The notes: generated from the letters alone by a model not told the origin. Shown: positions 5,534-27,509, counted from the first letter of the stretch. The stretch: 32,000 bases of DNA from Candidatus Paracaedimonas acanthamoebae (GCA_000743035.1 CP008936.1:600001-632000); one strand, 5' to 3'. Numbers and translations are program-made.

Positions 5534-6235
5534 CTATGATTGTTTTTTGTAATAGTATGGTATAGTAAGTTTTTTAGTCAAAGTTTCAAAACCAGCTGGT
5601 AAACCTTTTTCAAAGCCATACTTAGGAAAATAATGTTGTGTTGCTCCTGCTCGAAGATCGGAAAAAACATAATCAACAGATGTTTGCGGTAAGATAAAAT
5701 GTTTTAAAAAGGCATCTAAGCATACTTGAGCATAGCCTTTTCCTCCAGCGTTGAAGCCTGAGTTAACACTTTCAATAACAATGTAGTCTTTTTGGTCTTC
5801 TTGTTTAGGAAAATATTGATATGTAGCTGTAGAGAGGTAGCAAGCTGAGTCTTTTCTGACATCTGAGAACCCTGTTAAACCGCTCAAGCAAATTTTTAAG
5901 GGATTCGTTTTTCCATCATAAAGGGCAAACTCACCATAAGGTGAGGATTTCCGACAAACATTGGCGATAATAAATTCTTCTTCTTGCTTAGTTTTAGGGT
6001 TTATACATGAAACCTCTTTTAAGGTGATCCAAGGAAAATTTTGCTCAGGTGACGCAATATATTGCTCAAGGTTGAGATCTGGTTGTGAGGCCCGATTCCT
6101 TGCAGCTATTACAGTTTCCTCATCAAGATAACCAAACCAGTTATTATCTTCTCGAGCATTGGTCGCAAATGCATGCCCAGTTAATGTAAAGGCTAATAAG
6201 ATGGCAAAGTTCCTAAATTTCAATTTTTTCTCCAT
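5534..6235 (-). CDS. Secreted GNAT-like (acyl-CoA N-acyltransferase fold) protein, function unknown
   Basis: Signal peptide MEKKLKFRNFAILLAFTLTGHAFA/TNA. The C-terminal half resembles GNAT motif A/B: IVIESVNSGFNAGGKGYAQVCLDAFLKHF ... SDLRAGATQHYFPKYGFEKG. The family call rests on motif resemblance only. Confidence 0.6.
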   Translation of the reverse strand: MEKKLKFRNFAILLAFTLTGHAFATNAREDNNWFGYLDEETVIAARNRASQPDLNLEQYIASPEQNFPWITLKEVSCINPKTKQEEEFIIANVCRKSSPYGEFALYDGKTNPLKICLSGLTGFSDVRKDSACYLSTATYQYFPKQEDQKDYIVIESVNSGFNAGGKGYAQVCLDAFLKHFILPQTSVDYVFSDLRAGATQHYFPKYGFEKGLPAGFETLTKKLTIPYYYKKQS

Positions 6236-6954
6236 TGTCTAAAGAATAAGTTATTAAACAAAAAGGTTAACAATTATTTTGTCTTCCCTTAAGGATAAGC
6301 ATTTTAATAAAAATAGACTTTTTGTCAAATAAAATTTGTTTAGCTTTATTATAAGATAATTGAGCAAATGGTTAGGCCGCAGCTACATTAGTCATTCGAG
6401 AATTGTTAAGAAGAGTTTTTTATTTCTTGAGAAAAATAGTGTTTTAACTATTTCCTTTATATAAAAAACTTGATTTATGAAACTAAATATGGTAGCCTGA
6501 TAGTATAGATGGTTAGATGATTTTCATCTCTTATGAAAACCTAAAAGATCTTCATAATTCTTCCATAAAATCCAACTGTCTCATTAAAATAATAAGGGAA
6601 TTAAAAAAACCTAAGTTATTAAAGAGAATAAGCCTTTTAACGCTCTTTTTGAGCGAATACCCTCTCTTTGCCTTTTTCAGAGGTCGATTCCTCTGCAAAA
6701 AGAATAACTGAAGCGTCCTGATCAAACGCTTAACCCAGAAAATTTCGAATCTCTGGGGAGAGAAAAAGGTATGCCAACAGTTGAGTAAATGAGGATAATG
6801 ATAGGCATGTCGTGAAATGGAAGAAACGATCTGTCCTGACCTCAACCTCTCAAACAAAAGCAAAAGGCTTCCCAATTCCTTCCTGTGCACAAACTGCACA
6901 GGAAGGGAGAGGGGAAAACAATAAAAACAAGAAACATAAACAAGGAGATATAAA

Positions 6955-7281
6955 ATGATAAAAACACATGAACAAAAACCAAATGGTAAGAAAGAACTAG
7001 GGGCACAAAAACGTCTGGACCCATCAACAATCAAGAAAAGGGTGCTCAGTGCTGTTTTGAGGAGAGAAACAGGTTGTTTCAATCCCTCTCAAAGAGACAA
7101 ACGTATGAAGGTCTATCAACAGAGCTTCAACCGCTGGTGGGACCTAATCTTCGATCAGAAAGAAAAGCATCGCATGGCGATAAGAAAGATCTTGAAGTCG
7201 CATGAGATCCTAGGCACAGGGCCTAGGATGACGAAAGAAGAGAGTACTTTGAACTTATTGGTAAGAACTGAGTGGAAATGA
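6955..7281 (+). CDS. Hypothetical basic 108-aa protein encoded inside repeat copy A
   Basis: Consensus SD AAGGAGA lies 6 nt before the ATG (caaggagatataaaATG). The product is Lys/Arg-rich with no recognisable domain. Its last 29 codons lie in the shared 3' module, but substitutions there against copy B are mostly non-synonymous, so coding status is doubtful. Confidence 0.3.
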   Translation: MIKTHEQKPNGKKELGAQKRLDPSTIKKRVLSAVLRRETGCFNPSQRDKRMKVYQQSFNRWWDLIFDQKEKHRMAIRKILKSHEILGTGPRMTKEESTLNLLVRTEWK

Positions 7282-7305
7282 AAATGAATAAAGAAAAGAA
7301 AAAAA

Positions 7306-7410
7306 ATGTTGGGAAATAAAAAGTTATTAAATGACGAGCTTCAGGCCTATCACCCACAAAGTCATCCTTGGGCTTGTCCCAAGGATCTCAGGCAACCAGG
7401 AAAACGTTGA
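7306..7410 (+). CDS. Candidate 34-aa small ORF in the repeat 3' module (copy A)
   Basis: MLGNKKLLNDELQAYHPQSHPWACPKDLRQPGKR. The homologous position in copy B (22331-22465) keeps the ATG and frame without indels (MFGNKGMKTDELQAYHPQSHPRTCVGDLRQPG...). Across 34 aligned codons there are 5 synonymous and about 11 non-synonymous differences. There is no SD in copy A and an AGGA in copy B. Confidence 0.2.
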   Translation: MLGNKKLLNDELQAYHPQSHPWACPKDLRQPGKR

Positions 7411-7789
7411 AAGGTGCCATAAGGTTCTGAGCGTGCGGAAAAGGTATGGACCAAGGGGAGACGTGTGAAATGGTTGGGACTGTAGGGTGGATAAAGAAGA
7501 AAGACACTTTTAGGGTTCTTTTTTGGCAAAAAAATGGAAGCATAGAACTTCATCGAAAAGTCTCAAGTATGTACAGGTATAGAAGGAACCAATAGGATGG
7601 CTTGAAATTAGAAAACAAAAAGAAAAAAATTAAGATTTAAGGGCAGTTTATTAATAATAATTTAAAATTTATCAAATAAACAGGGAGAAGCATAAAGAGC
7701 AATTTTTTAAAAAACATTTAGGGGGAAAGGTTTCACCTCTTGACCCTTTTAAAGATTGTTTTCTATGCTTGGCTGGAAATGGAGACGTT

Positions 7790-9730
7790 ATGACATATAT
7801 TAAACACGCCTATAAAGCAAGGCTCGCAACCTTAACATCAGAAAAGTATGGAGAGCTTTATACGCAATCAATTAAAAATACTGAAGTATTTTGGCGCGAG
7901 CAAGCACAGCGTATTACATGGATCAAGCCCTTTACCAAAGTTAAAGATACTTCTTTTTACGCTGAAGATTTTCGGATCAAGTGGTTTGAAGATGGCACTT
8001 TAAATGTTGCTGCGAATTGTCTTGATCGGCACTTAGTAGAACGTGGGGACCAAGTCGCCATTATTTGGGAAGGGGATGATCCTCAAAAATCCCAAAAGAT
8101 TACCTATCGAGAATTATATGAACAAGTTTGCAAGTGCGCAAATATTCTAAAAGGATTGGGTGTTGAGCGAGGCGATCGGGTGACGATTTACCTTCCAATG
8201 ATCCCCGAGGCTGCCGTTGCAATGTTGGCTTGTGCACGGATTGGTGCGATACATTCTGTTGTTTTTGGGGGATTCTCGCCTGAGTCATTAGCAGGTCGGA
8301 TTGTGGATTGCGATTCTAAACTCGTGATTACAGCCGATGAAGGCGTGCGTGGTGGTAAGCTTATTCCGCTGAAAAGAAATGTGGATGAGGCGTTAGCAAG
8401 GCCAGAGGTCACTTCAGTTGAATCTGTGCTTGTTATCAAACGTACGGGAAATGTCGTGCCTTTTATGCACGTAAGAGACCATTGGTATAACGAATTGATG
8501 GCCAAAGCTGCACATGAATGCGTGCCGGCTGAAATGGGAGCCGAAGATCCTTTATTTATTTTGTATACGTCGGGGTCAACAGGCAAACCTAAAGGGGTGT
8601 TGCATACAACGGGTGGATATTTAGTGTTTGCGTCTTTAACGCATCAGCAGATCTTTGACTATCATCCCGGTGACGTTTATTGGTGCTCCGCCGATGTAGG
8701 GTGGATTACAGGTCACAGCTATGTTCTTTATGGCCCGCTTGCAAATGGGGCAACCACCTTAATGTTCGAGGGTGTGCCGACCTACCCGGATGCATCTCGC
8801 TTCTGGCAGGTTATTGATAAACATCAGGTGAATATTTTTTATACTGCACCTACAGCCATTCGGTCGTTGATGCGAGAGGGGGATGAAGCGGTCAAAAAAA
8901 CGAAAAGACGTTCTTTAAGGCTTTTGGGGTCGGTTGGTGAGCCCATTAATCCTGAAGCTTGGGAATGGTACTATCGCATTGTGGGTGAAGAACGTTGCCC
9001 CATTATGGATACATGGTGGCAAACGGAGACGGGCGGTATTTTAATTACACCTCTCCCTGGTGTTCATGACCTTAAGCCAGGCTCTGCAACACAACCTTTC
9101 TTTGGTGCAAAGCCAGCGATTGTTGATCTTCAAGGAACCATCCTTGAAGGTGAAGCAGAAGGGGCTTTGGTTATGCTTGATTCATGGCCAGGACAAATGC
9201 GTTCCGTCTATGGGGATCATCAGCGCTTTATTGATACTTATTTTAAAACTTATCCCGGTATGTATTTTTCGGGAGATGGAGCGCGCCGAGATCAAGATGG
9301 CGATTATTGGATTACCGGACGAATTGATGATGTGATCAATGTTTCGGGGCACCGGCTCGGAACAGCTGAGGTTGAAAGTGCGTTAAATACGCATCCTAAA
9401 GTGGTTGAAACGGCTGTGGTTGGTTTTCCGCATGAGATTAAGGGGCAGGGGATTTATGCCTTTGTCACGCTTCATAAAGGTGAAAAACCTTCTGAAGAGC
9501 TGAAAAAAGAACTCATCCAAGAGGTCCGTAAACATATTGGGGCGATTGCGAGCCCTGACATCATTCAGTGGGCTCCAGGGCTTCCTAAAACTCGCTCAGG
9601 TAAAATCATGCGGCGCATTTTGCGGAAGATTGCTGCGAATGAAATTGATAGTTTAGGAGATATCTCGACATTGGCTGACCCTGGTGTTGTTGAGGAGTTG
9701 GTAAAGGAAAGAAATTTAAGATTTTTATAG
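7790..9730 (+). CDS. acs: Acetyl-CoA synthetase (AMP-forming)
   Basis: [34 protein letters not shown] and [12 protein letters not shown] prefer the ATG at 7790 (GGAGA 5 nt upstream) over the in-frame TTG at 7769 used by the ORF track. Confidence 0.95.
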
Positions 9731-18456: not shown

Positions 18457-18640
18457 GTTTTTTTGACCGAACTATTTGCCATCTAGAAGTTGCTCATTTT
18501 TTTTTACGGCTTTTTATGCTCGTTTAAAGTGATCAAAAACCCATCTTTGAGAGACATTAAATTATTTAAAACTTATGACTTAAGTCGGGCGATTGCCAGT
18601 TGAAAAAAACCTATTTTTCCTCTAGAAGGCGAGCGTAAGA
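18457..18640. repeat. Direct repeat R1 flanking the KGG gene (partner R2 at 19345-19528)
   Basis: Colinear match to R2. Shared blocks are gtttttttgaccgaacta/gctttttttgatcaaacta, gatcaaaaacc, ttatttaaaacttatga, ccagttgaaaaaa and agc(g/a)taag. Weaker similarity extends to about 18424 and 19284 (tgtcatat ... ttgtgtt(a/g)agc). Confidence 0.7.
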
Positions 18641-18737: not shown

Positions 18738-19169
18738 TTATTCCCCTCTACGGGATTTGCCACCTTTGTGTCCCATCTCAGCATAGCCTTCTGGCCCAAG
18801 CTGCTCTTTACGAGCTTCACCACCTTTGTGGCCAAGGTCTACGTAGCCTTCATGCCCTAACTGTTGTTTCCGGGTTTCGCCACCTTTGTGTCCCATCTCA
18901 GCATAGCCTTCTGGCCCAAGCTGCTCTTTGCGAGCTTCACCACCTTTGTGGCCAAGATCTACGTAGCCTTCATGCCCTAACTGTTGTTTCCGGGTTTCGC
19001 CACCTTTATGACCACGTTCAGCCATTCCTTCGTGGCCAGCCTTTTCAGCACTGGCTTTTCCCCCTTTAGAGGCAATTTCTTGTACCTTTTCATGGGGCAT
19101 AGAAGCAAAGCCTCTGTTCTCTGTACCTGAGGATGAGGATCGTCCTTGATTTTTTCTATTTTGTGCCAT
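18738..19169 (-). CDS. KGG-repeat stress-induced protein (YciG/GsiB-like)
   Basis: Reiterated 20-aa units GHKGGE(A/T)RK(E/Q)QLG(P/H)EGY(A/V)(E/D)(M/L), and an N-terminus SKGGKAS. A strong RBS AGGAGA lies 6 nt before the ATG. Confidence 0.85.
   Translation of the reverse strand: MAQNRKNQGRSSSSGTENRGFASMPHEKVQEIASKGGKASAEKAGHEGMAERGHKGGETRKQQLGHEGYVDLGHKGGEARKEQLGPEGYAEMGHKGGETRKQQLGHEGYVDLGHKGGEARKEQLGPEGYAEMGHKGGKSRRGE
18751..19007. repeat. In-frame tandem repeat inside the KGG gene, period 120 bp, about 2.1 copies
   Basis: 18751-18870 versus 18871-18990 differ at only about 4 positions (for example 18810 a/g and 18838 g/a). A third unit begins at 18991-19007. Confidence 0.95.
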
Positions 19170-19344: not shown

Positions 19345-19528
19345 GCTTTTTTTGATCAAACTAAGGCTTTTCAAAGCTTCTATTTGTTGATGGCTTCTCA
19401 GGTGCGTTTAATTTGATCAAAAACCTAACTCTTACGAGTTATTTAAAACTTATGATTTGAAATGAGTGATTACCAGTTGAAAAAAGACTAGCTTTGCTTC
19501 TAAAAGTTTAGCATAAGCACTTTAAGAC
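19345..19528. repeat. Direct repeat R2 flanking the KGG gene (partner of R1)
   Basis: See R1. The R1-to-R2 offset is 888 bp. Confidence 0.7.
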
Positions 19529-21841: not shown

Positions 21842-21930
21842 ATGGTTCTCTAGTTACTTAGTCAATATTCTTGCATGCTAATAGAAGTTCGTCAAAAAGT
21901 GGAGAAAAATTTGTAAGAAGTCAGAATTTT

Positions 21931-22448
21931 CTTGATTTTTGTATCATGATATGGTAGCCTGGTAATAGATGGTCAGAGATGATTCTCTTCCTTATTAAGA
22001 CTTAAAAAATCTTGATAACCCTTTTACTCAGTTTCTGAATCCATCCCATAAGAAAAGAAGAATAAGACAGGGATAAAAACCTCAATTATTAAACAATAAA
22101 AGACCTTTTAACGCTCTACTTCAGCGAATGCCCTCTCTTTGCCTGATGAAAAGGCGGGGGTAGGCATAGAAAAGGAGGGAGTTTAGTGGAGAACATCGAA
22201 TGGCGATGGGAGAGATCTTTCGGTTCCTTGAGATCCTAGGCACAGGGCCTAGGATGACGAGAACAAAGGAGCTTGGAACTCAGAGGTGAGGTCTGAGTGG
22301 GAATTGAAATGAATAAAGAAAGGAAGAAAAATGTTTGGCAACAAAGGAATGAAAACTGACGAGCTTCAGGCCTATCACCCACAAAGTCATCCCCGGACTT
22401 GTGTCGGGGATCTTAGGCAACCAGGGGATGCTGAAAGGTGCCAAGATA
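21931..22448 (+). repeat. Bipartite intergenic repeat, short copy B. The 5' module is 21931-22144, the 49-bp middle is 22145-22193, and the 3' module is 22194-22448.
   Basis: Colinear with copy A (6469-7425). It contains the same 8-bp hairpin (22234-22254) and the covarying hairpin (22389-22411). Confidence 0.85.
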
Positions 22449-22465
22449 ATCAATTTTTAACATGA
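22331..22465 (+). CDS. Candidate 44-aa small ORF in the repeat 3' module (copy B)
   Basis: MFGNKGMKTDELQAYHPQSHPRTCVGDLRQPGDAERCQDNQFLT. AGGA lies about 7 nt upstream. It is the positional homologue of 7306-7410. Confidence 0.2.
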   Translation: MFGNKGMKTDELQAYHPQSHPRTCVGDLRQPGDAERCQDNQFLT

Positions 22466-22622: not shown

Positions 22623-25600
22623 ATGCAGGATGATTCAATTAAGGTCTTAAGAATGAAAAAAAAGCAACTGAATGAGCGGGTCGAAACAATTACTGAACTT
22701 GTTCAAAGAAAGGCAAGCGATTCTATCAAACTATCGATCAAGCGTTTCACACAACAATTTTTTTCAACGCTTGCTTCAGATGATATGCGGAAGATCCCTC
22801 TTGAAAATCTTGCAGCAGGCGTCCTAGACCTTTGGGAGTTTTTTCAAGAGCGTGAAGTTGGAAAACCAAAAATTCGAATCTATTATTGGAGGCCAGACGC
22901 CACGTTGCCTTTGCCTTTGGCTGAACGTATTGTGATTGATATTGTGAATGATGATATGTCATTTCTTGTCGATTCTCTTATTCAACTCTTGCAAAAACAT
23001 AATCTAAAAGCCAAGCGAATTGTTCATCCTGTGATTAAAGTAAAACGAAATGCTGAAGGAAAGTTAACAGATGTATTTGAACTCACTGAAGAAGCTTCGG
23101 AAGCCCAGTATGAATCAGTAATTCATTGTGAAATTGTTGAATCCATTTATCCAGAGCTTGTGGATCTTTTAGCAAAAGAACTTCAAGATGTTTTACAGGA
23201 TGTGAGGTATGCAACTTCCGATTGGAAAAAAATGCTTGATAAAGTTTTAGTTGCGCAGGATGACCTACAAAGGACCTGCCCTCCAACAGCTCTTGATCAG
23301 CAAGGAGAAATCCTAAATTTTCTCGACTGGATTCGCGAGGATCATTACACATTTCTTGGTTATGCTTATTATGATTTCTTAGAAGCCCATCATGAAGGAA
23401 TTAAAAAAATTCAATGTTCTCATGGGCTTGGGATTATGAAACTAGAATCGTATCAAAGTCTTGCGAAGATTTTTGATGGAGTTGATTTTGAAAACCAAAC
23501 ATTTCACTATATTTTAGAATCGACACCTTTAATTATTAATAAGGCTAGCCAAATTTCTCGTGTCCATCGCGGGGTAACAATGGACATTATTGGCGTCAAG
23601 CACTTCTCATCGAATGGTTCGGTGATTGGCATGCATCTTTTTATGGGGCTGTTCACTTCTGTTGCTTATGATAGCAGCGTTCGAGATATCCCTTTATTGC
23701 GTCGGAAGCTAGAACATATCTTAGATTATGCTGGTTTGGTTCCTGCTTGGCATGATGGAAAGTCTTTGATTCATATTCTTGATTCTCTACCTCGAGATGA
23801 CTTTTTTCAAGCAGATATTGAGCAATTAGCAGAAATTGGGCTTGCTGTGTTAAATCTTCAAGAGCGTCAGAAGTTTGCGCTTTTTATTCATCAAGATCAA
23901 TTCAATCGTTTTTTGTCTTGCCTCGTGTATATCCCGCGTGAGCGTTTTGATTCTGAATTATGCGATCAGATTGGTGAGACACTTGCTAAAAACTTAAAGG
24001 GTGCCTTGTCGGTTTATAAAGCTCAATTTGGATCTTTTGCACTGGCACGCGTGCATTACACGATTCATATCCCAGGCGGTATTAAAGAGACTTATAATAT
24101 CAAGGGTCTTGAAGAAAAAATTGTTAAGGTAGCCCGTTCTTGGAAAGATGACTTACGGTTAACTCTTGTCTCTGCTTTTAATGATTATGAGGGGCAAAAA
24201 GTCTTTCAGCGTTATTGTGAAGCCTTCACGAAAGGGTATCAAGAACGTTTTCATGGCGCCGATGTTAAAGCTGATATTGAACAAATAGAATTAGCCTGCC
24301 AATCCAATACGCCTAAAGCTCGTCTTTATACAACTGATGGAGCTCCAAGTCACCGTTTACATCTGAAAGTTTTTAATCCAGGTGATCCTGTTGCTCTTTC
24401 GGATATTCTCCCAGTTCTTGAAAATCTTGATTTTAGAGTGATTAAAGAGATACCTTTTGTGGTCTCACCCCAAGGGGTATCTAACCCTGTGTGGATTCAT
24501 GATTTTGAAATGATTACGCAAGATAATTACGTTGTTAATCCCACAGAGATTCAAGCAAATTTTTTCAGTACTTTGAAGGGCGTAAAAGAAAGATTGATTG
24601 AAGATGATGGTGTTAATCGTCTCATTTTGAGAGCTAATATAACACCACGTGAAGGTTTAATTCTTAGGGTTTTAAGCAAATATTTACGGCAACTTCAGTT
24701 TTCATTCAGTCGAGAATATATTGAGCAAACACTCTTGAAATATTCCGATATTACGAAGCAACTCGTGACATTTTTTGGGAGTAAATTTAATCCAGAAATT
24801 GCCCTTGATGATCAGCTTTTGAAACAAGACATCTTAAAGAAGATTGATAAAATTCAAAATCCCGATGAAGATAAGATTTTAAGAAGATTTTTAAATCTCA
24901 TACAGTCAGCGTTGCGAACAAACTTTTACCAAAAAGATGCACAAGGCAATTTTAAGACTTATACGTCCATTAAGTTTGATTGTCATCAAATTGATGAATT
25001 GCCTCTTCCCAGGCCAAAATTTGAGATCTATATTTATTCTCCTCACTTTGAAGCCATTCACTTGAGAGGTGGAAAAGTTGCACGAGGAGGCATTCGTTGG
25101 TCAGATCGCCTTGAAGATTACCGAACAGAAATTTTAGGTCTTCTTAAGGCTCAGATGGTTAAAAATACGGTCATTGTACCTGTTGGTTCAAAAGGAGGAT
25201 TTGTTCTAAAAGCAATCCCTCAGAATGCAAGCCGTGAAGAAGTTCTCAACGAAGCCATAACCTATTATAAAAAAATGATTCAGGGTTTATTGGATATTAC
25301 AGATAATTTTAAAGATGGAGTAGTAATTCCTCCTCAAGATGTTGTTCGATGGGATGAAGATGATCCTTATTTGGTCGTTGCGGCGGATAAAGGAACAGCA
25401 ACATTCTCAGATTATGCCAATGAAGTTTCGAAAGATTATGACTTTTGGTTGGATGATGCATTTGCCTCCGGAGGATCCAGTGGTTATGATCACAAAAAAA
25501 TTGGAATCACAGCCCGAGGCGCATGGGAATCTGTCAAGCGCCATTTCTATGAGCTGGATATTCCTATCGAGAGGGCACCGTTTACTGTTGCCGGTGTAGG

Positions 25601-27509
25601 GGATATGTCAGGGGATGTTTTTGGGAATGGGATGCTTCAATTTGAGACAATCAAGCTTGTAGCTGCATTTAATCATCAACATATTTTTATTGATCCAACA
25701 CCAGACTCTCAATTGAGTTATAACGAACGGAAGCGTCTTTTCAAACTTCCACGCTCAACATGGAAAGACTATGATCCTGCTTTTATTTCAAAAGGAGGTG
25801 GTGTGTTTGAGCGGACAGCAAAGACAATTCCTGTATCTCCTGAGATGCAACAGCTTTTCAATTTGAATGTGACAGAGATAACCCCCTCTGAATTGATCAA
25901 AGCAATTTTGAAATTAAATGTAGATCTTTTGTGGTTTGGTGGCATTGGAACTTTTATTAAGTCTTCTAAAGAAAGTCATCAAGATGTTGGCGATCGTACC
26001 AATGATGCTATACGGATCAATGCTAAGCATCTTCGCTGTAAAGTCATTGGAGAAGGAGCTAATTTGGGTGTTACCCAGCTAGGCCGCATTGAGTATGCAA
26101 CCTTGGGGGGGCGCATTAATACGGATGCAATTGATAATTCAGGTGGTGTGAATTGCTCAGATCATGAAGTTAATATTAAAATTCTTCTCAATCAACTTGT
26201 CATTGCCGGAAAATTAAGTTTAGAAGCACGCAATAATTTATTGGAATCTATGACAGATGAGGTTGCCAAGCTTGTTTTACGGGACAATTATAAACAGGCA
26301 CAAGCCATCAGCTTGCTTGAGGCTCAAGGACCGAATCTTCTTGATGGACAGATTCGAATTATGAGAACGCTTGAGGCTAAGGGTATACTCAATCGAGCAA
26401 TTGAGTATTTGCCGGACGATGCCACGATGCTTGAGCATCAAACATTACAAAAAGGTCTTACAAAACCTGAAATTGCAATTTTGTTGGCCTATAGCAAAAT
26501 TGATTTTTATCAGGAAATCCTTAAGTCTTCTTTGCTGGATGATTTCGTTTTTGAAGAAGATCTTTTAAATTATTTCCCAGAGAGTATGCGCAAGAATTAT
26601 CGGGCTGAGATTTTAACACATCCGCTTAGGCGCGAAATTGTGGCAACAAAGATCACAAATGAAATTGTCAACCGCATCAGTGCTAGCTTCATTTATGATA
26701 CCATGACAAAATTAAACTGTCGCCTTGAAGATGTTTACCGGGCTTATATTATCGTTCGGAATGTCTTTGATCTTCGTGCGCTATGGCGACAGTTAGAGAG
26801 TTTGGATAAATTGATTCATCCAACAACGCTTATAAAAGTCATGATTGATATTCTGCATATGGTGCGGCGTACGATTAAGTGGCTTATTCGTCATTATAAA
26901 ATGGCGGATAATATTACGGCATCAACTCAACTTTTCAAACTTGGGACAAGCGCCTTTTTAGCAGATCTTCATCATTTCCTCGATGAACAGAGCCAGATTA
27001 ACCTTCAGCAGCAGATTACATTCTATGAGAAGTTAGGTCTTCCTCAAAAACTTGCGCTTGAGATTGCGTATCTTCAAGTGGCTACATCATCGCCAGATAT
27101 CATCTTAATTGCTTCACAAACAGGCTATAGTATTGCACAGATTGCCATCTTTTATTTTCTTGTGGGGGCGCGTCTTGGCATCACTCACTTAAGGCAAGAA
27201 ATTGAAAAAATTAAATCAAATACGTCTTGGCATCGTTTTGCAATTCTAGGAATTCAAGAAGATTTATTTAATATCCAGAATGAGGTCGTACTGCAGGTCT
27301 TAAGTTTTGATGACAAGAGTCCGAAAAATGATCAGCTTAAAACAACGATGTTAATGGAGCTTTGGACGATTGCATCAAAAGATAAATTAGCGTCTCTTGA
27401 TGCTTTGCTTCAGGAAGCTTTTTTGCAAAATTCATTGGATCTGGCAAATCTAACCGTTATCACGCGGGAATTAAGAAATCTAACAACGGAATTAGGGTTG
27501 AAGGGCTAA
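22623..27509 (+). CDS. gdhB: NAD-specific glutamate dehydrogenase, large (about 180 kDa) class
   Basis: 1628 aa. The catalytic core reads RGGIRWSDRLEDYRTEILGLLKAQMVKNTVIVPVGSKGGF ... VVAADKGTATFSDYAN ... GVGDMSGDVFGNGM ... NSGGVNCSDHEVNIKIL. The symbol is used loosely (gdhZ in Caulobacter). Confidence 0.93.
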   Translation: MQDDSIKVLRMKKKQLNERVETITELVQRKASDSIKLSIKRFTQQFFSTLASDDMRKIPLENLAAGVLDLWEFFQEREVGKPKIRIYYWRPDATLPLPLAERIVIDIVNDDMSFLVDSLIQLLQKHNLKAKRIVHPVIKVKRNAEGKLTDVFELTEEASEAQYESVIHCEIVESIYPELVDLLAKELQDVLQDVRYATSDWKKMLDKVLVAQDDLQRTCPPTALDQQGEILNFLDWIREDHYTFLGYAYYDFLEAHHEGIKKIQCSHGLGIMKLESYQSLAKIFDGVDFENQTFHYILESTPLIINKASQISRVHRGVTMDIIGVKHFSSNGSVIGMHLFMGLFTSVAYDSSVRDIPLLRRKLEHILDYAGLVPAWHDGKSLIHILDSLPRDDFFQADIEQLAEIGLAVLNLQERQKFALFIHQDQFNRFLSCLVYIPRERFDSELCDQIGETLAKNLKGALSVYKAQFGSFALARVHYTIHIPGGIKETYNIKGLEEKIVKVARSWKDDLRLTLVSAFNDYEGQKVFQRYCEAFTKGYQERFHGADVKADIEQIELACQSNTPKARLYTTDGAPSHRLHLKVFNPGDPVALSDILPVLENLDFRVIKEIPFVVSPQGVSNPVWIHDFEMITQDNYVVNPTEIQANFFSTLKGVKERLIEDDGVNRLILRANITPREGLILRVLSKYLRQLQFSFSREYIEQTLLKYSDITKQLVTFFGSKFNPEIALDDQLLKQDILKKIDKIQNPDEDKILRRFLNLIQSALRTNFYQKDAQGNFKTYTSIKFDCHQIDELPLPRPKFEIYIYSPHFEAIHLRGGKVARGGIRWSDRLEDYRTEILGLLKAQMVKNTVIVPVGSKGGFVLKAIPQNASREEVLNEAITYYKKMIQGLLDITDNFKDGVVIPPQDVVRWDEDDPYLVVAADKGTATFSDYANEVSKDYDFWLDDAFASGGSSGYDHKKIGITARGAWESVKRHFYELDIPIERAPFTVAGVGDMSGDVFGNGMLQFETIKLVAAFNHQHIFIDPTPDSQLSYNERKRLFKLPRSTWKDYDPAFISKGGGVFERTAKTIPVSPEMQQLFNLNVTEITPSELIKAILKLNVDLLWFGGIGTFIKSSKESHQDVGDRTNDAIRINAKHLRCKVIGEGANLGVTQLGRIEYATLGGRINTDAIDNSGGVNCSDHEVNIKILLNQLVIAGKLSLEARNNLLESMTDEVAKLVLRDNYKQAQAISLLEAQGPNLLDGQIRIMRTLEAKGILNRAIEYLPDDATMLEHQTLQKGLTKPEIAILLAYSKIDFYQEILKSSLLDDFVFEEDLLNYFPESMRKNYRAEILTHPLRREIVATKITNEIVNRISASFIYDTMTKLNCRLEDVYRAYIIVRNVFDLRALWRQLESLDKLIHPTTLIKVMIDILHMVRRTIKWLIRHYKMADNITASTQLFKLGTSAFLADLHHFLDEQSQINLQQQITFYEKLGLPQKLALEIAYLQVATSSPDIILIASQTGYSIAQIAIFYFLVGARLGITHLRQEIEKIKSNTSWHRFAILGIQEDLFNIQNEVVLQVLSFDDKSPKNDQLKTTMLMELWTIASKDKLASLDALLQEAFLQNSLDLANLTVITRELRNLTTELGLKG

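What the first reader, a model, noticed from the sequence alone, without database searches (positions are those of the whole stretch)
7364..7386. Hairpin in the repeat 3' module is preserved by compensatory double substitutions
Copy A forms atccttggg-cttgt-cccaaggat, a 9-bp stem. Copy B at the homologous site (22389-22411) forms atccccg-gacttgtgt-cggggat, a 7-bp stem. Two T:A pairs in A are C:G pairs in B, with both partners changed, while the surrounding 35-nt block is identical. A second hairpin, tcctaggc-acagg-gcctagga (7208-7228 and 22234-22254), is fully conserved. Covariation argues for selection on secondary structure, in RNA or in single-stranded DNA as with IS200/IS605-type subterminal hairpins or REP-like elements. 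Neither hairpin is followed by a U-tract, so they are not simple terminators.
Basis: seen in the sequence. Interest (0 to 1): 0.7.

Follow-up and report, generated by a model that had tools for sequence, protein, structure and literature searches.

The report
Covarying hairpins in a repeated gene leader
The hairpin is real and keeps its base pairing through matched changes, but it is one small palindromic building block of a repeated promoter-plus-leader cassette that sits in front of many genes in a group of amoeba-associated bacteria, and whether it acts in RNA or in DNA is still open.

Summary
The hairpin, its coordinates, the second conserved hairpin and the missing U-tracts are all as described.

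- **The repeat.** The two window copies (6469-7480 before acs, 21924-22443 before NAD-gdh) belong to a dispersed, lineage-specific repeat. It occurs in Caedimonadaceae-like bacteria (Holosporales), at no fewer than 10 loci in one metagenome sample.
- **Architecture.** Each copy starts with a conserved ~220-nt promoter-like module (M5). A variable mosaic of short palindromic units follows, in direct and inverted versions.
- **Orientation.** In 14 of 15 cases with a callable downstream ORF, the copy is co-oriented with that gene.
- **H1 and H2.** H2 (the finding) and H1 are the same unit in opposite orientations.
- **Covariation.** Across 34 distinct copies the 9-bp stem is 92.5% paired against 82.5% in shuffles (0/500). 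Five of the nine pairs show compensatory double changes.
- **Local fold.** The local hairpin is what is conserved. The H1:H2 long-range duplex is not.

No Rfam family, terminator, transposase, plasmid or phage match was found.

Best reading (about 0.5): stem-loops in a shared transcribed 5' leader. The main rival (about 0.3) is REP/BIME- or MITE/RPE-like selfish palindromes acting in single-stranded DNA. The G·U versus A·C test does not settle the strand.

Verdict: a new variant of a known kind, of moderate interest.

The parts
6469..7480 (+). Repeat copy A: the whole promoter-leader cassette upstream of acs. It consists of M5, an extra ~490-nt module, and the hairpin modules H1, H2 and a class-3-like motif at 7431-7449.
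   Evidence: It lies between divergent genes: 5534-6235 on the - strand and acs on the + strand.
6469..6673 (+). M5 module of copy A. It holds a promoter-like TTGATT-17 nt-TGG TAGCCT (6470-6498), covarying small hairpins, CGCTC-TTTTT-GAGCG (6641-6655) and a CU-rich AATACCCTCTCTTTGCC (6656-6672).
   Evidence: The alignment of 16 copies has a sharp 5' boundary at CTTGAT, with CTTGA and ATGGTAG nearly invariant. The promoter is inferred; it fell below the threshold of the simple scan.
6876..6908 (+). 14-bp hairpin TTCCTTCCTGTGCA-CAAAC-TGCACAGGAAGGGA, just upstream of a strong Shine-Dalgarno sequence.
   Evidence: It is conserved, with stem changes, in L007, L028, L019 and L031.
6955..7281 (+). 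Small ORF (108 aa) with AAGGAG-N7-ATG. It reads through H1.
   Evidence: The N-terminal 68 aa are identical to IM40_08840 of Ca. Paracaedimonas acanthamoebae. Third-codon-position bias is seen only in the first ~65 codons.
7204..7232 (+). H1 of copy A: a class-1 palindromic unit in inverted orientation (stem 7207-7229).
7333..7367 (+). 35-nt block identical in both copies.
7361..7397 (+). H2 of copy A (the finding): a class-1 unit in direct orientation, GTCAT-CCTTGGG-CTTGT-CCCAAGG-ATC, plus the conserved flank TCAGGCAACC. The stem is 7364-7386.
7769..9730 (+). Downstream gene of copy A: acetyl-CoA synthetase.
   Evidence: The orthologous acs in L027 also has the cassette upstream.
21924..22443 (+). 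Repeat copy B: the cassette upstream of NAD-glutamate dehydrogenase. It lacks the ~490-nt module.
21931..22144 (+). M5 module of copy B, with the promoter-like site at 21932-21960.
22230..22258 (+). H1 of copy B (inverted class-1 unit).
22386..22422 (+). H2 of copy B (direct class-1 unit; stem 22389-22411) plus the flank TTAGGCAACC.
22623..27509 (+). Downstream gene of copy B: large NAD-specific glutamate dehydrogenase (1628 aa).
   Evidence: The orthologue in L007 carries a ~1.5-kb (8242-9713) version of the cassette, with about 290 nt more to the gdh start.

Best explanation
The hairpin is one palindromic module of a multi-copy, lineage-specific promoter-leader cassette found in Caedimonadaceae-type (Holosporales) chromosomes.

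Each cassette begins with a conserved promoter-like module (M5). It continues with a variable mosaic of short stem-loop units. Class 1 is GTCATCC-TCGGG-CTTGT-CCCGA-GGATC. Class 2 is GTCATCCCCGC-GAAA-GCGGGGATCC. Each class exists in a direct and an inverted version. The cassette ends just before a co-oriented gene, here acs and gdh.

I infer that the cassette is transcribed from M5 as a long 5' leader. I also infer that each unit folds locally as a stem-loop in that RNA. Stacked stem-loops would then set mRNA stability, processing or translation, or bind a protein. In some copies a small upstream ORF is part of the leader.

Units are duplicated, inverted, lost and exchanged between copies.

**Shown:** the family, its architecture, the co-orientation with downstream genes, the sense-strand purine and GGA bias, and conservation of the local stems by compensatory change.

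**Inferred:** the promoter, transcription of the leader, action at the RNA level, and the regulatory role.
For: - **Family and copy number.** A pattern scan gave 22 related loci on several contigs of the same bins. Assemblies of close relatives break inside the gdh leader.
- **Architecture.** M5 always comes first and the hairpin modules follow in the same orientation.
- **Co-orientation.** 14 of 15 cassettes with a callable downstream ORF point into it. The downstream genes include acs (twice), gdh (twice), maeB-pta, tolB, pcm and several hypothetical genes.
- **Setting in the window.** Both window copies lie between divergent genes, which is promoter territory.
- **5' boundary.** Homology starts sharply at an invariant CTTGAT, followed 17 nt later by TGGTAG.
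- **Stems.** Class 1 is 92.5% paired with 5 of 9 covarying pairs, and class 2 is 96% paired. Class-2 direct units mostly carry GNRA-type GAAA loops.
- **M5 hairpin.** CGCTC/GAGCG changes to CACTC/GAGTG through G·U intermediates.
- **Local fold.** Local hairpins, not the H1:H2 duplex, are what is kept.
- **Strand bias.** Sense-strand purine content is 0.54-0.65. GGA outnumbers TCC by about 2:1 overall (GGA > TCC in 17 of 18 arrays).
- **Persistence.** Cassettes persist at orthologous acs and gdh loci although the GDH proteins are only 82% identical.
- **No terminator.** No terminator on the + strand separates cassette and gene.
Against: - There are no transcript data.
- G·U versus A·C in the sense orientation is only 19:12 (p = 0.14).
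- RNAalifold scores M5 equally well on both strands. Single-sequence folding z-scores are also similar on both strands.
- Units occur in both orientations, so a loop-specific RNA-binding role cannot apply to all of them.
- The promoter-like site scores below the simple sigma-70 scan threshold.
- Module content differs strongly between orthologous leaders. That fits selfish turnover as well as it fits regulation.
- The downstream genes share no single obvious pathway.
- The copies are related by descent. The shuffle controls therefore overstate significance.
Confidence: 0.5

Rival explanations
1. Selfish palindromic DNA. The units would be REP/BIME-like or MITE/RPE-like elements whose hairpins matter in single-stranded DNA, during replication or transposition. 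They would pile up and recombine in permissive promoter-proximal intergenic DNA. The compensatory changes would reflect what a transposase or a DNA-level process needs, or quasi-palindrome template switching and gene conversion, rather than RNA function.
For: - The units are short palindromes with conserved flanks (GTCAT...ATC-TCAGGCAAC). They occur in direct and inverted versions, clustered in mosaics.
- H1 and H2 form 29-nt inverted repeats enclosing ~130 nt, like MITE terminal repeats.
- Modules are gained and lost between orthologous leaders, and 100% identical M5 copies occur within one genome.
- Contigs break at the repeat.
- There is no significant G·U over A·C asymmetry.
- B's changed stem equals the class-2 stem, which suggests conversion.
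- Correia, BOX and QMITE1 elements also sit upstream of genes, carry promoters and contain ORFs (PMC10969869).
Against: - No solitary units were seen outside the cassettes in about 326 kb. This sample is biased, because the loci were chosen for carrying a unit.
- Every cassette starts with M5 and keeps one orientation relative to the downstream gene (14/15).
- The inverted and direct versions are distinct subfamilies fixed in orientation, not freely flipping copies.
- No target-site duplication was recognised.
- The window has no transposase, and tblastn found no Y1 transposase.
- Strand-specific purine and GGA bias is not expected for purely DNA-level palindromes.
- There is no match in the plasmid or phage collections.
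Confidence: 0.3
2. Coding constraint. The hairpin would lie inside a fast-evolving small-protein gene, and the conserved block would be conserved as peptide. The window ORFs are 7306-7410 (34 codons including the stop) and 22331-22465 (45 codons). Other copies carry ORFs of 108-214 aa. The palindromes would be RPE-like in-frame inserts.
For: - A strong Shine-Dalgarno sequence plus ATG is conserved in the sense orientation.
- Third-position bias appears in the first ~65 codons, for example 4/4/12 differences in L028 versus L031.
- The H2 plus class-3 module stays open in one frame in most copies, while the other two frames hold 2-7 stops.
- Gene callers annotated 7 such proteins. One is IM40_08840 of Ca. 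Paracaedimonas acanthamoebae, whose first 68 aa are identical to window ORF 6955-7281.
Against: - Within the hairpin the A-versus-B changes are radical at the protein level (W to R, A to T, P to V, K to G), yet they keep the pairing.
- Codon-position differences are flat in the hairpin-bearing part (12/13/11).
- The ORFs end at different places, and copy B lacks the long ORF altogether.
- There is no Pfam or NCBIfam match.
- The 35-nt block is identical even at third positions, which coding does not explain.
Confidence: 0.1
3. Chance. With two copies, the matched substitutions could be coincidental.
For: Only two copies exist in the window. Each copy differs from the family consensus by a single double change.
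Against: Family-wide counts exclude it. No shuffle in 500 reaches the observed pairing or the observed number of double-change cells. At least 8 apparently separate double-change events occur over 5 pairs, by my reading. The same behaviour is seen in class 2.
Confidence: 0.02

Closest known systems
REP sequences and bacterial interspersed mosaic elements (BIMEs) of enterobacteria and pseudomonads (REPINs, RAYT-associated)
   Same: Both have short imperfect palindromes with conserved flanking bases. Both occur in alternating orientations, clustered with other short motifs into mosaics. Both are extragenic, and their stems are kept by matched changes.
   Different: - Here the units are seen only inside cassettes that begin with a promoter-like module and lie 5' of genes, not mainly in 3' regions.
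- Tens of units were seen, not hundreds.
- The flank is GTCAT rather than GTAG.
- No RAYT was found.
- The two inverted units do not co-evolve as a REPIN hairpin would.
Correia elements of Neisseria, and other promoter-bearing MITEs such as BOX and QMITE1 (PMC10969869)
   Same: Both are repeats with inverted termini located just upstream of genes. Both carry sigma-70-like promoters and sometimes ORFs. Both fold in transcripts, and Correia terminal repeats are cut by RNase III.
   Different: - No target-site duplication or defined element ends were found.
- The cassette is 0.5-1.7 kb and mosaic, not a 100-200-bp unit.
- Each inverted terminus is itself a palindrome.
- The orientation relative to the gene is fixed.
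Rickettsia palindromic elements (RPEs)
   Same: Both are palindromic repeats in an obligately host-associated alphaproteobacterial lineage. Both can be read through in frame by ORFs.
   Different: - RPEs are ~150-bp units inserted inside unrelated housekeeping genes.
- These units are 25-37 nt. They sit in leaders and in a small lineage-specific ORF, not inside acs or gdh.
- Sequence relatedness to RPE families was not tested.
Structured 5' leaders and cis-regulatory RNAs shared by a regulon
   Same: Both show a conserved sequence plus covarying stems between a promoter and the start codon of several co-oriented genes.
   Different: - There is no Rfam match.
- No single conserved architecture, ligand pocket or terminator/antiterminator switch was found.
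- Module number and order vary between copies.
IS200/IS605 subterminal hairpins
   Same: Both are imperfect palindromes that could fold in single-stranded DNA.
   Different: There is no adjacent tnpA or tnpB, and no IS ends. The units are internal, repeated, and present in both orientations.

Membership tests
REP / BIME (RAYT-mobilised) | Short (20-40 nt) imperfect palindrome with conserved flank, in clusters of alternating orientation | tested here: met
   60 class-1 and 36 class-2 units were found in direct and inverted versions.
REP / BIME (RAYT-mobilised) | Cognate RAYT (Y1 transposase) gene in the genome, typically flanked by REPs | tested here: inconclusive
   None is present in the window. 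A whole genome was not available.
REP / BIME (RAYT-mobilised) | Many dispersed copies, mostly in 3' or inter-cistronic extragenic space | tested here: not met
   Units occur only within M5-led cassettes 5' of co-oriented genes. The sample is biased toward loci that carry a unit.
MITE (Correia-like) | Terminal inverted repeats | tested here: met
   H1 and H2 are 29-nt inverted copies about 157 nt apart, start to start.
MITE (Correia-like) | Target-site duplication and clean presence/absence at orthologous sites | tested here: not met
   No duplication was seen at the H1/H2 outer edges. Orthologous leaders differ by mosaic indels, not clean insertions.
Rickettsia palindromic elements | ~100-150-bp palindromic unit inserted in frame in housekeeping ORFs; sequence similarity to RPE-1 to RPE-10 | not tested
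   No RPE library was available. Here the units are read in frame only by a small lineage-specific ORF.
IS200/IS605 end | Adjacent tnpA (Y1) and/or tnpB | tested here: not met
   The window genes are housekeeping genes.
Intrinsic terminator | GC-rich stem followed by a U-tract on the transcribed strand | tested here: not met
   H1 is followed by GACGAAAG and H2 by CTCAGGCAAC. No + strand site was found.
Any Rfam family (riboswitch, leader, sRNA, ribozyme) | Covariance-model score at or above the gathering threshold | tested here: not met
   There were 0 hits at gathering. Only chance-level hits appeared at E <= 10.
Structured cis-acting leader RNA | Co-orientation with the downstream gene and covarying stems | tested here: met
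   14 of 15 cassettes are co-oriented. Covariation is shown.
Structured cis-acting leader RNA | Strand-specific signal of RNA pairing (G·U tolerated, A·C not) | tested here: inconclusive
   The count is 19 versus 12, p = 0.14. Alifold scores for sense and antisense are about equal.
Structured cis-acting leader RNA | Evidence of transcription through the element | not testable with these tools
   No expression data were available.

The most novel reading that the evidence does not exclude
The cassette is a previously undescribed kind of modular leader. One promoter plus a stack of interchangeable stem-loops, with an optional upstream ORF, has been copied in front of acs, gdh, maeB and other genes. 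Through it, an obligate amoeba symbiont would co-regulate uptake-dependent carbon and nitrogen metabolism by way of a single RNA-binding factor or RNase.
Probability: 0.2. Interest if true: 0.7.

Novelty: new variant of a known kind. Interest (0 to 1): 0.45.

Why it matters
Little is known about gene regulation in Holosporales symbionts, which cannot be grown outside their hosts.

A shared promoter-leader cassette in front of acetyl-CoA synthetase, NAD-glutamate dehydrogenase, malic enzyme and others would be a concrete handle on how such bacteria coordinate metabolism.

The family is also a natural case for asking whether REP-like palindromes can be recruited as RNA structure.

It has practical consequences too. 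The repeat breaks metagenome assemblies at these loci, and it produces spurious small-ORF annotations.

If it turns out to be selfish DNA only, it is one more lineage-specific palindromic repeat and of modest interest.

Tried and rejected
- **Rfam.** Nothing at gathering and only chance-level hits at permissive thresholds. No tRNA or tmRNA was found.
- **Genome-collection scan.** An 18-mer from the identical block gave only two chance hits, in Cyanobium and a Cytophagaceae MAG.
- **Exact look-ups.** The S6 protein and P0126 are not on record.
- **Terminator reading.** Rejected because there is no U-tract.
- **Long-range H1:H2 helix.** RNAfold's MFE prefers it. I rejected it as the conserved structure because partners within a cassette match no better than random partners (22.2 versus 22.5 of 27).
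- **Sigma-54 reading of TGGTAG-N5-TTGTA.** Rejected because the -12 part is not conserved across copies.
- **Hammerhead-like CUGACGAG.** There is no Rfam support and no GAAA core.
- **CcrM GANTC sites.** They occur only in the ATTC/GAAT variants and are absent from the window units.
- **CsrA-type GGA sponge.** GGA is enriched, but I had no evidence that the lineage has CsrA, so this stays speculation.
- **Sense versus antisense tests.** Both the alifold comparison and the G·U/A·C counts were inconclusive.
- **Plasmid and phage similarity.** None.

Full report
**Observation.**
- Copy A at 7364-7386 is ATCCTTGGG-CTTGT-CCCAAGGAT.
- Copy B at 22389-22411 is ATCCCCG-GACTTGTGT-CGGGGAT. It has an extra G·T pair that would be a G·U wobble in RNA.
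- The identical 35-nt block is 7333-7367 and 22358-22392.
- The second hairpin lies in an identical 31-nt block at 7204-7234 and 22230-22260.
- No + strand terminator-like site exists in either region.

**What the repeat is in the window.**
- The two copies are homologous intergenic regions: 6469 to about 7480, and 21924-22443.
- Each lies between divergently transcribed genes and points into a metabolic gene. Copy A points into acetyl-CoA synthetase (7769-9730). Copy B points into the large NAD-glutamate dehydrogenase (22623-27509).
- Copy A has about 490 nt that copy B lacks.
- The rest of the window is ordinary chromosome: metG, tpiA, secG, pyrG, kdsA, rpsF-rpsR-rplI, dnaB, alr, murA, dcd, prs and hem genes. 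It contains no transposase.
- No Rfam family, tRNA, plasmid or phage matches the repeat.

**H1 and H2 are one unit in two orientations.**
- RNAfold paired the two 'hairpins' with each other.
- The reverse complement of H2 (GAGATCCTTGGGACAAGCCCAAGGATGAC) is nearly H1 (GAGATCCTAGGCACAGGGCCTAGGATGAC).
- In relatives the flanks are inverted too: TCAAGCAAC against TCAGGCAAC.

**Relatives.**
- The GDH protein places the window next to 'Caedibacter sp. 37-49' (82% identity) and unnamed Logan assemblies (83-92%).
- The small ORF in copy A shares its first 68 residues exactly with IM40_08840 of Candidatus Paracaedimonas acanthamoebae, which belongs to Holosporales, Caedimonadaceae.
- The gdh neighbourhood is syntenic in these relatives.
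- Five of their contigs end 280-570 nt upstream of gdh, inside the leader. This is what assemblers do at repeats.
- The long contig L007 has a ~1.5-kb cassette (8242-9713) in the gdh upstream region, homologous to copy A including its 'extra' part. It holds five hairpin units.

**The family.**
- A degenerate pattern for H2 plus its flank found 23 stretches in metagenome contigs. One of them (L032) is a chance hit.
- Several different contigs of the same sample carry copies. Ga0209960 alone has 7 contigs and at least 10 units.
- All-against-all comparison and module mapping give a consistent architecture.
- A ~220-nt module M5 always comes first. A variable mosaic of modules follows in the same orientation.
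- The total length is 0.4-1.7 kb.

**The M5 module.**
- In the alignment of 16 M5 copies, homology starts abruptly at TTTTCTTGAT.
- CTTGA is invariant or nearly invariant. So is ATGGTAG, 17 nt further on.
- I read this as a -35 / extended -10 promoter. That is an inference, because the simple scan does not reach its threshold.
- M5 then has small helices with compensatory changes. CGCTC-TTTTT-GAGCG becomes CACTC/GAGTG, and CGCTC/GAGTG copies carry a G·U pair.
- M5 ends in a CU-rich AATGCCCTCTCTTTGCC.

**Context of the cassettes.**
- Of 15 cassettes with a callable ORF beyond their 3' end, 14 are co-oriented with it.
- The downstream genes are acs (window and L027), gdh (window and L007), a malic enzyme-PTA fusion, tolB, pcm and several proteins without Pfam domains.
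- The array part of 18 cassettes is purine-rich on the sense strand (0.54-0.65, against 0.51-0.53 in coding regions).
- The arrays carry about twice as many GGA as TCC in total, 343 against 182, with GGA ahead in 17 of the 18.

**The units.**
- A Hamming scan with the class-1 consensus GTCATCCTCGGGCTTGTCCCGAGGATC found 60 sites, 34 of them distinct.
- A class-2 consensus GTCATCCCCGCGAAAGCGGGGATCC found 36 sites.
- Each class has a direct subfamily with outer stem ATCC/GGAT. Each also has an inverted subfamily, mostly ATTC/GAAT, with its own flank.
- All units found lie inside cassettes.

**Covariation.**
- Class 1: 92.5% of 306 cells are standard pairs, against 82.5 +/- 1.2 in shuffles (0/500).
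- Class 1 has 30 double-change cells against 11 +/- 2.3 (0/500). Five of 9 pairs have double changes. Slid registers give 27-53% paired.
- The pair types at three positions are:

| Pair (columns) | Types seen |
|---|---|
| 6-24 | C-G 26, U-A 6 |
| 9-21 | C-G 18, A-U 6, U·G 6, U-A 1 |
| 12-18 | G-C 14, C-G 9, U-A 3 |

- Class 2: 96% paired, with C-G 13 against U-A 10 at one pair.
- Against the family consensus, window copy A has one completed change (C-G to U-A at 9-21). Six other copies carry the U·G intermediate of that change.
- Window copy B has one completed change (U-A to C-G at 8-22).
- B's resulting outer stem ATCCCCG/CGGGGAT is exactly the class-2 stem. A conversion event is therefore as plausible as two point mutations.
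- The copies are related by descent. The shuffle control therefore overstates independence, but the slid-register control and the number of pair types do not depend on that.

**Local hairpin or long duplex?**
- For 11 cassettes that have an inverted unit followed by a direct unit, the two match each other no better than units taken from different cassettes. The mean is 22.2 of 27 against 22.5 permuted.
- Each unit's own arms pair at 7-9 of 9 positions.
- The conserved structure is therefore the local stem-loop.

**RNA or DNA?**
- In the sense orientation, non-Watson-Crick cells are G·U 19 and A·C 12 (p = 0.14).
- RNAalifold scores M5 alike on both strands.
- Single-sequence z-scores are similar on both strands.
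- These tests do not decide the question.
- The indirect evidence favours a transcript: co-orientation, the promoter-like boundary, the purine and GGA bias, the sense-strand SD-ATG, and GAAA loops in direct class-2 units.
- Other evidence is what selfish palindromic DNA would also show: both orientations, mosaic turnover, 100% identical M5 copies within one genome, and contig breaks.

**Small ORFs.**
- The extra module of copy A holds a 14-bp hairpin (6876-6908). AAGGAG-N7-ATG follows, and then a 108-codon ORF (6955-7281) that reads through H1.
- Homologous ORFs of 128-214 aa occur in other cassettes.
- Only 7 proteins in 5.8 billion match the ORF profile, and none has a Pfam or NCBIfam domain.
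- Third-position bias is visible only in the first ~65 codons.
- The H2 plus class-3 module stays open in one frame in most copies.
- Within the hairpin, however, the A/B differences are radical amino-acid changes that preserve pairing.
- Coding may therefore constrain the N-terminal part of the small ORF. It does not explain the hairpin.

**Comparison with known systems** (my knowledge, plus PMC10969869).
- The units work like REP palindromes in BIME-type mosaics.
- The cassette's position and promoter recall Correia, BOX and QMITE1 elements.
- In-frame read-through recalls Rickettsia palindromic elements.
- The cassette fails the membership tests for terminators, Rfam families, IS200/IS605 ends, clean MITEs (no target duplication) and typical REP distribution.
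- Literature searches for Holosporales or Caedibacter repeats found no description of this family.

**Verdict.**
Structure is conserved and the units are REP-like, but there is no IS200/RAYT evidence.
- The larger context, a shared promoter-leader cassette, is new information.
- I rate it a new variant of a known kind, with interest 0.45.

Noticed in passing
window 18738-19169 (-), repeats 18751-19050: The gene encodes a LEA_5/KGG-type small hydrophilic stress protein and is built on 60-nt tandem repeats. This is an unusual plant-seed-protein-like family for an intracellular alphaproteobacterium.
   Followed up: partly
window 18492-18621 and 19376-19498: Two pairs of direct repeats (55-60 nt, 73-78% identity, about 880 nt apart) flank the LEA-like gene on both sides (families D5 and D6). 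This suggests a local duplication of its intergenic flanks.
   Followed up: no
window 6955-7281 (+): The first 68 residues of this 108-aa ORF with a strong SD are identical to hypothetical protein IM40_08840 of Candidatus Paracaedimonas acanthamoebae (90 aa), after which the two diverge. The window is probably from a very close relative. Even so, the 18-mer from the repeat was not found in the species-representative genome collection.
   Followed up: partly
L003, L004, L005, L006, L009 (first 280-570 nt): Independent assemblies of related genomes all end inside the gdh leader. L004 starts in the middle of an inverted class-1 unit. The repeat is an assembly breakpoint.
   Followed up: yes
L030 4949-5167 and 11192-11410: Two M5 modules about 6 kb apart on one contig are identical over the 211 nt compared, while M5 copies of different loci are usually 70-85% identical. 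This points to recent duplication or gene conversion.
   Followed up: partly
L035 697-1459 (-): An IS4/IS5-type DDE transposase (DDE_Tnp_1 plus DUF4096) lies directly next to, and overlaps the end of, a cassette ORF in one metagenome contig. It is the only transposase seen near any copy.
   Followed up: no
taxonomy of the closest named relative: NCBI files 'Caedibacter sp. 37-49' under Gammaproteobacteria/Thiotrichales. Its GDH (82% identical) and the gdh neighbourhood of matching metagenome contigs resemble this window, whose cassette ORF family is otherwise found only in Holosporales Ca. Paracaedimonas. The name-based placement looks wrong.
   Followed up: no
window 7279-7305, 7603-7629, 22304-22330: An A-rich motif TGAAAATGAATAAAGAAAAGAAAAAAA occurs three times (family D7). 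It overlaps weak TTGAAA-17-AAAAAT promoter-like matches at 7602-7630 and 22304-22332. This could be an internal promoter or an Hfq-type ARN tract.
   Followed up: no
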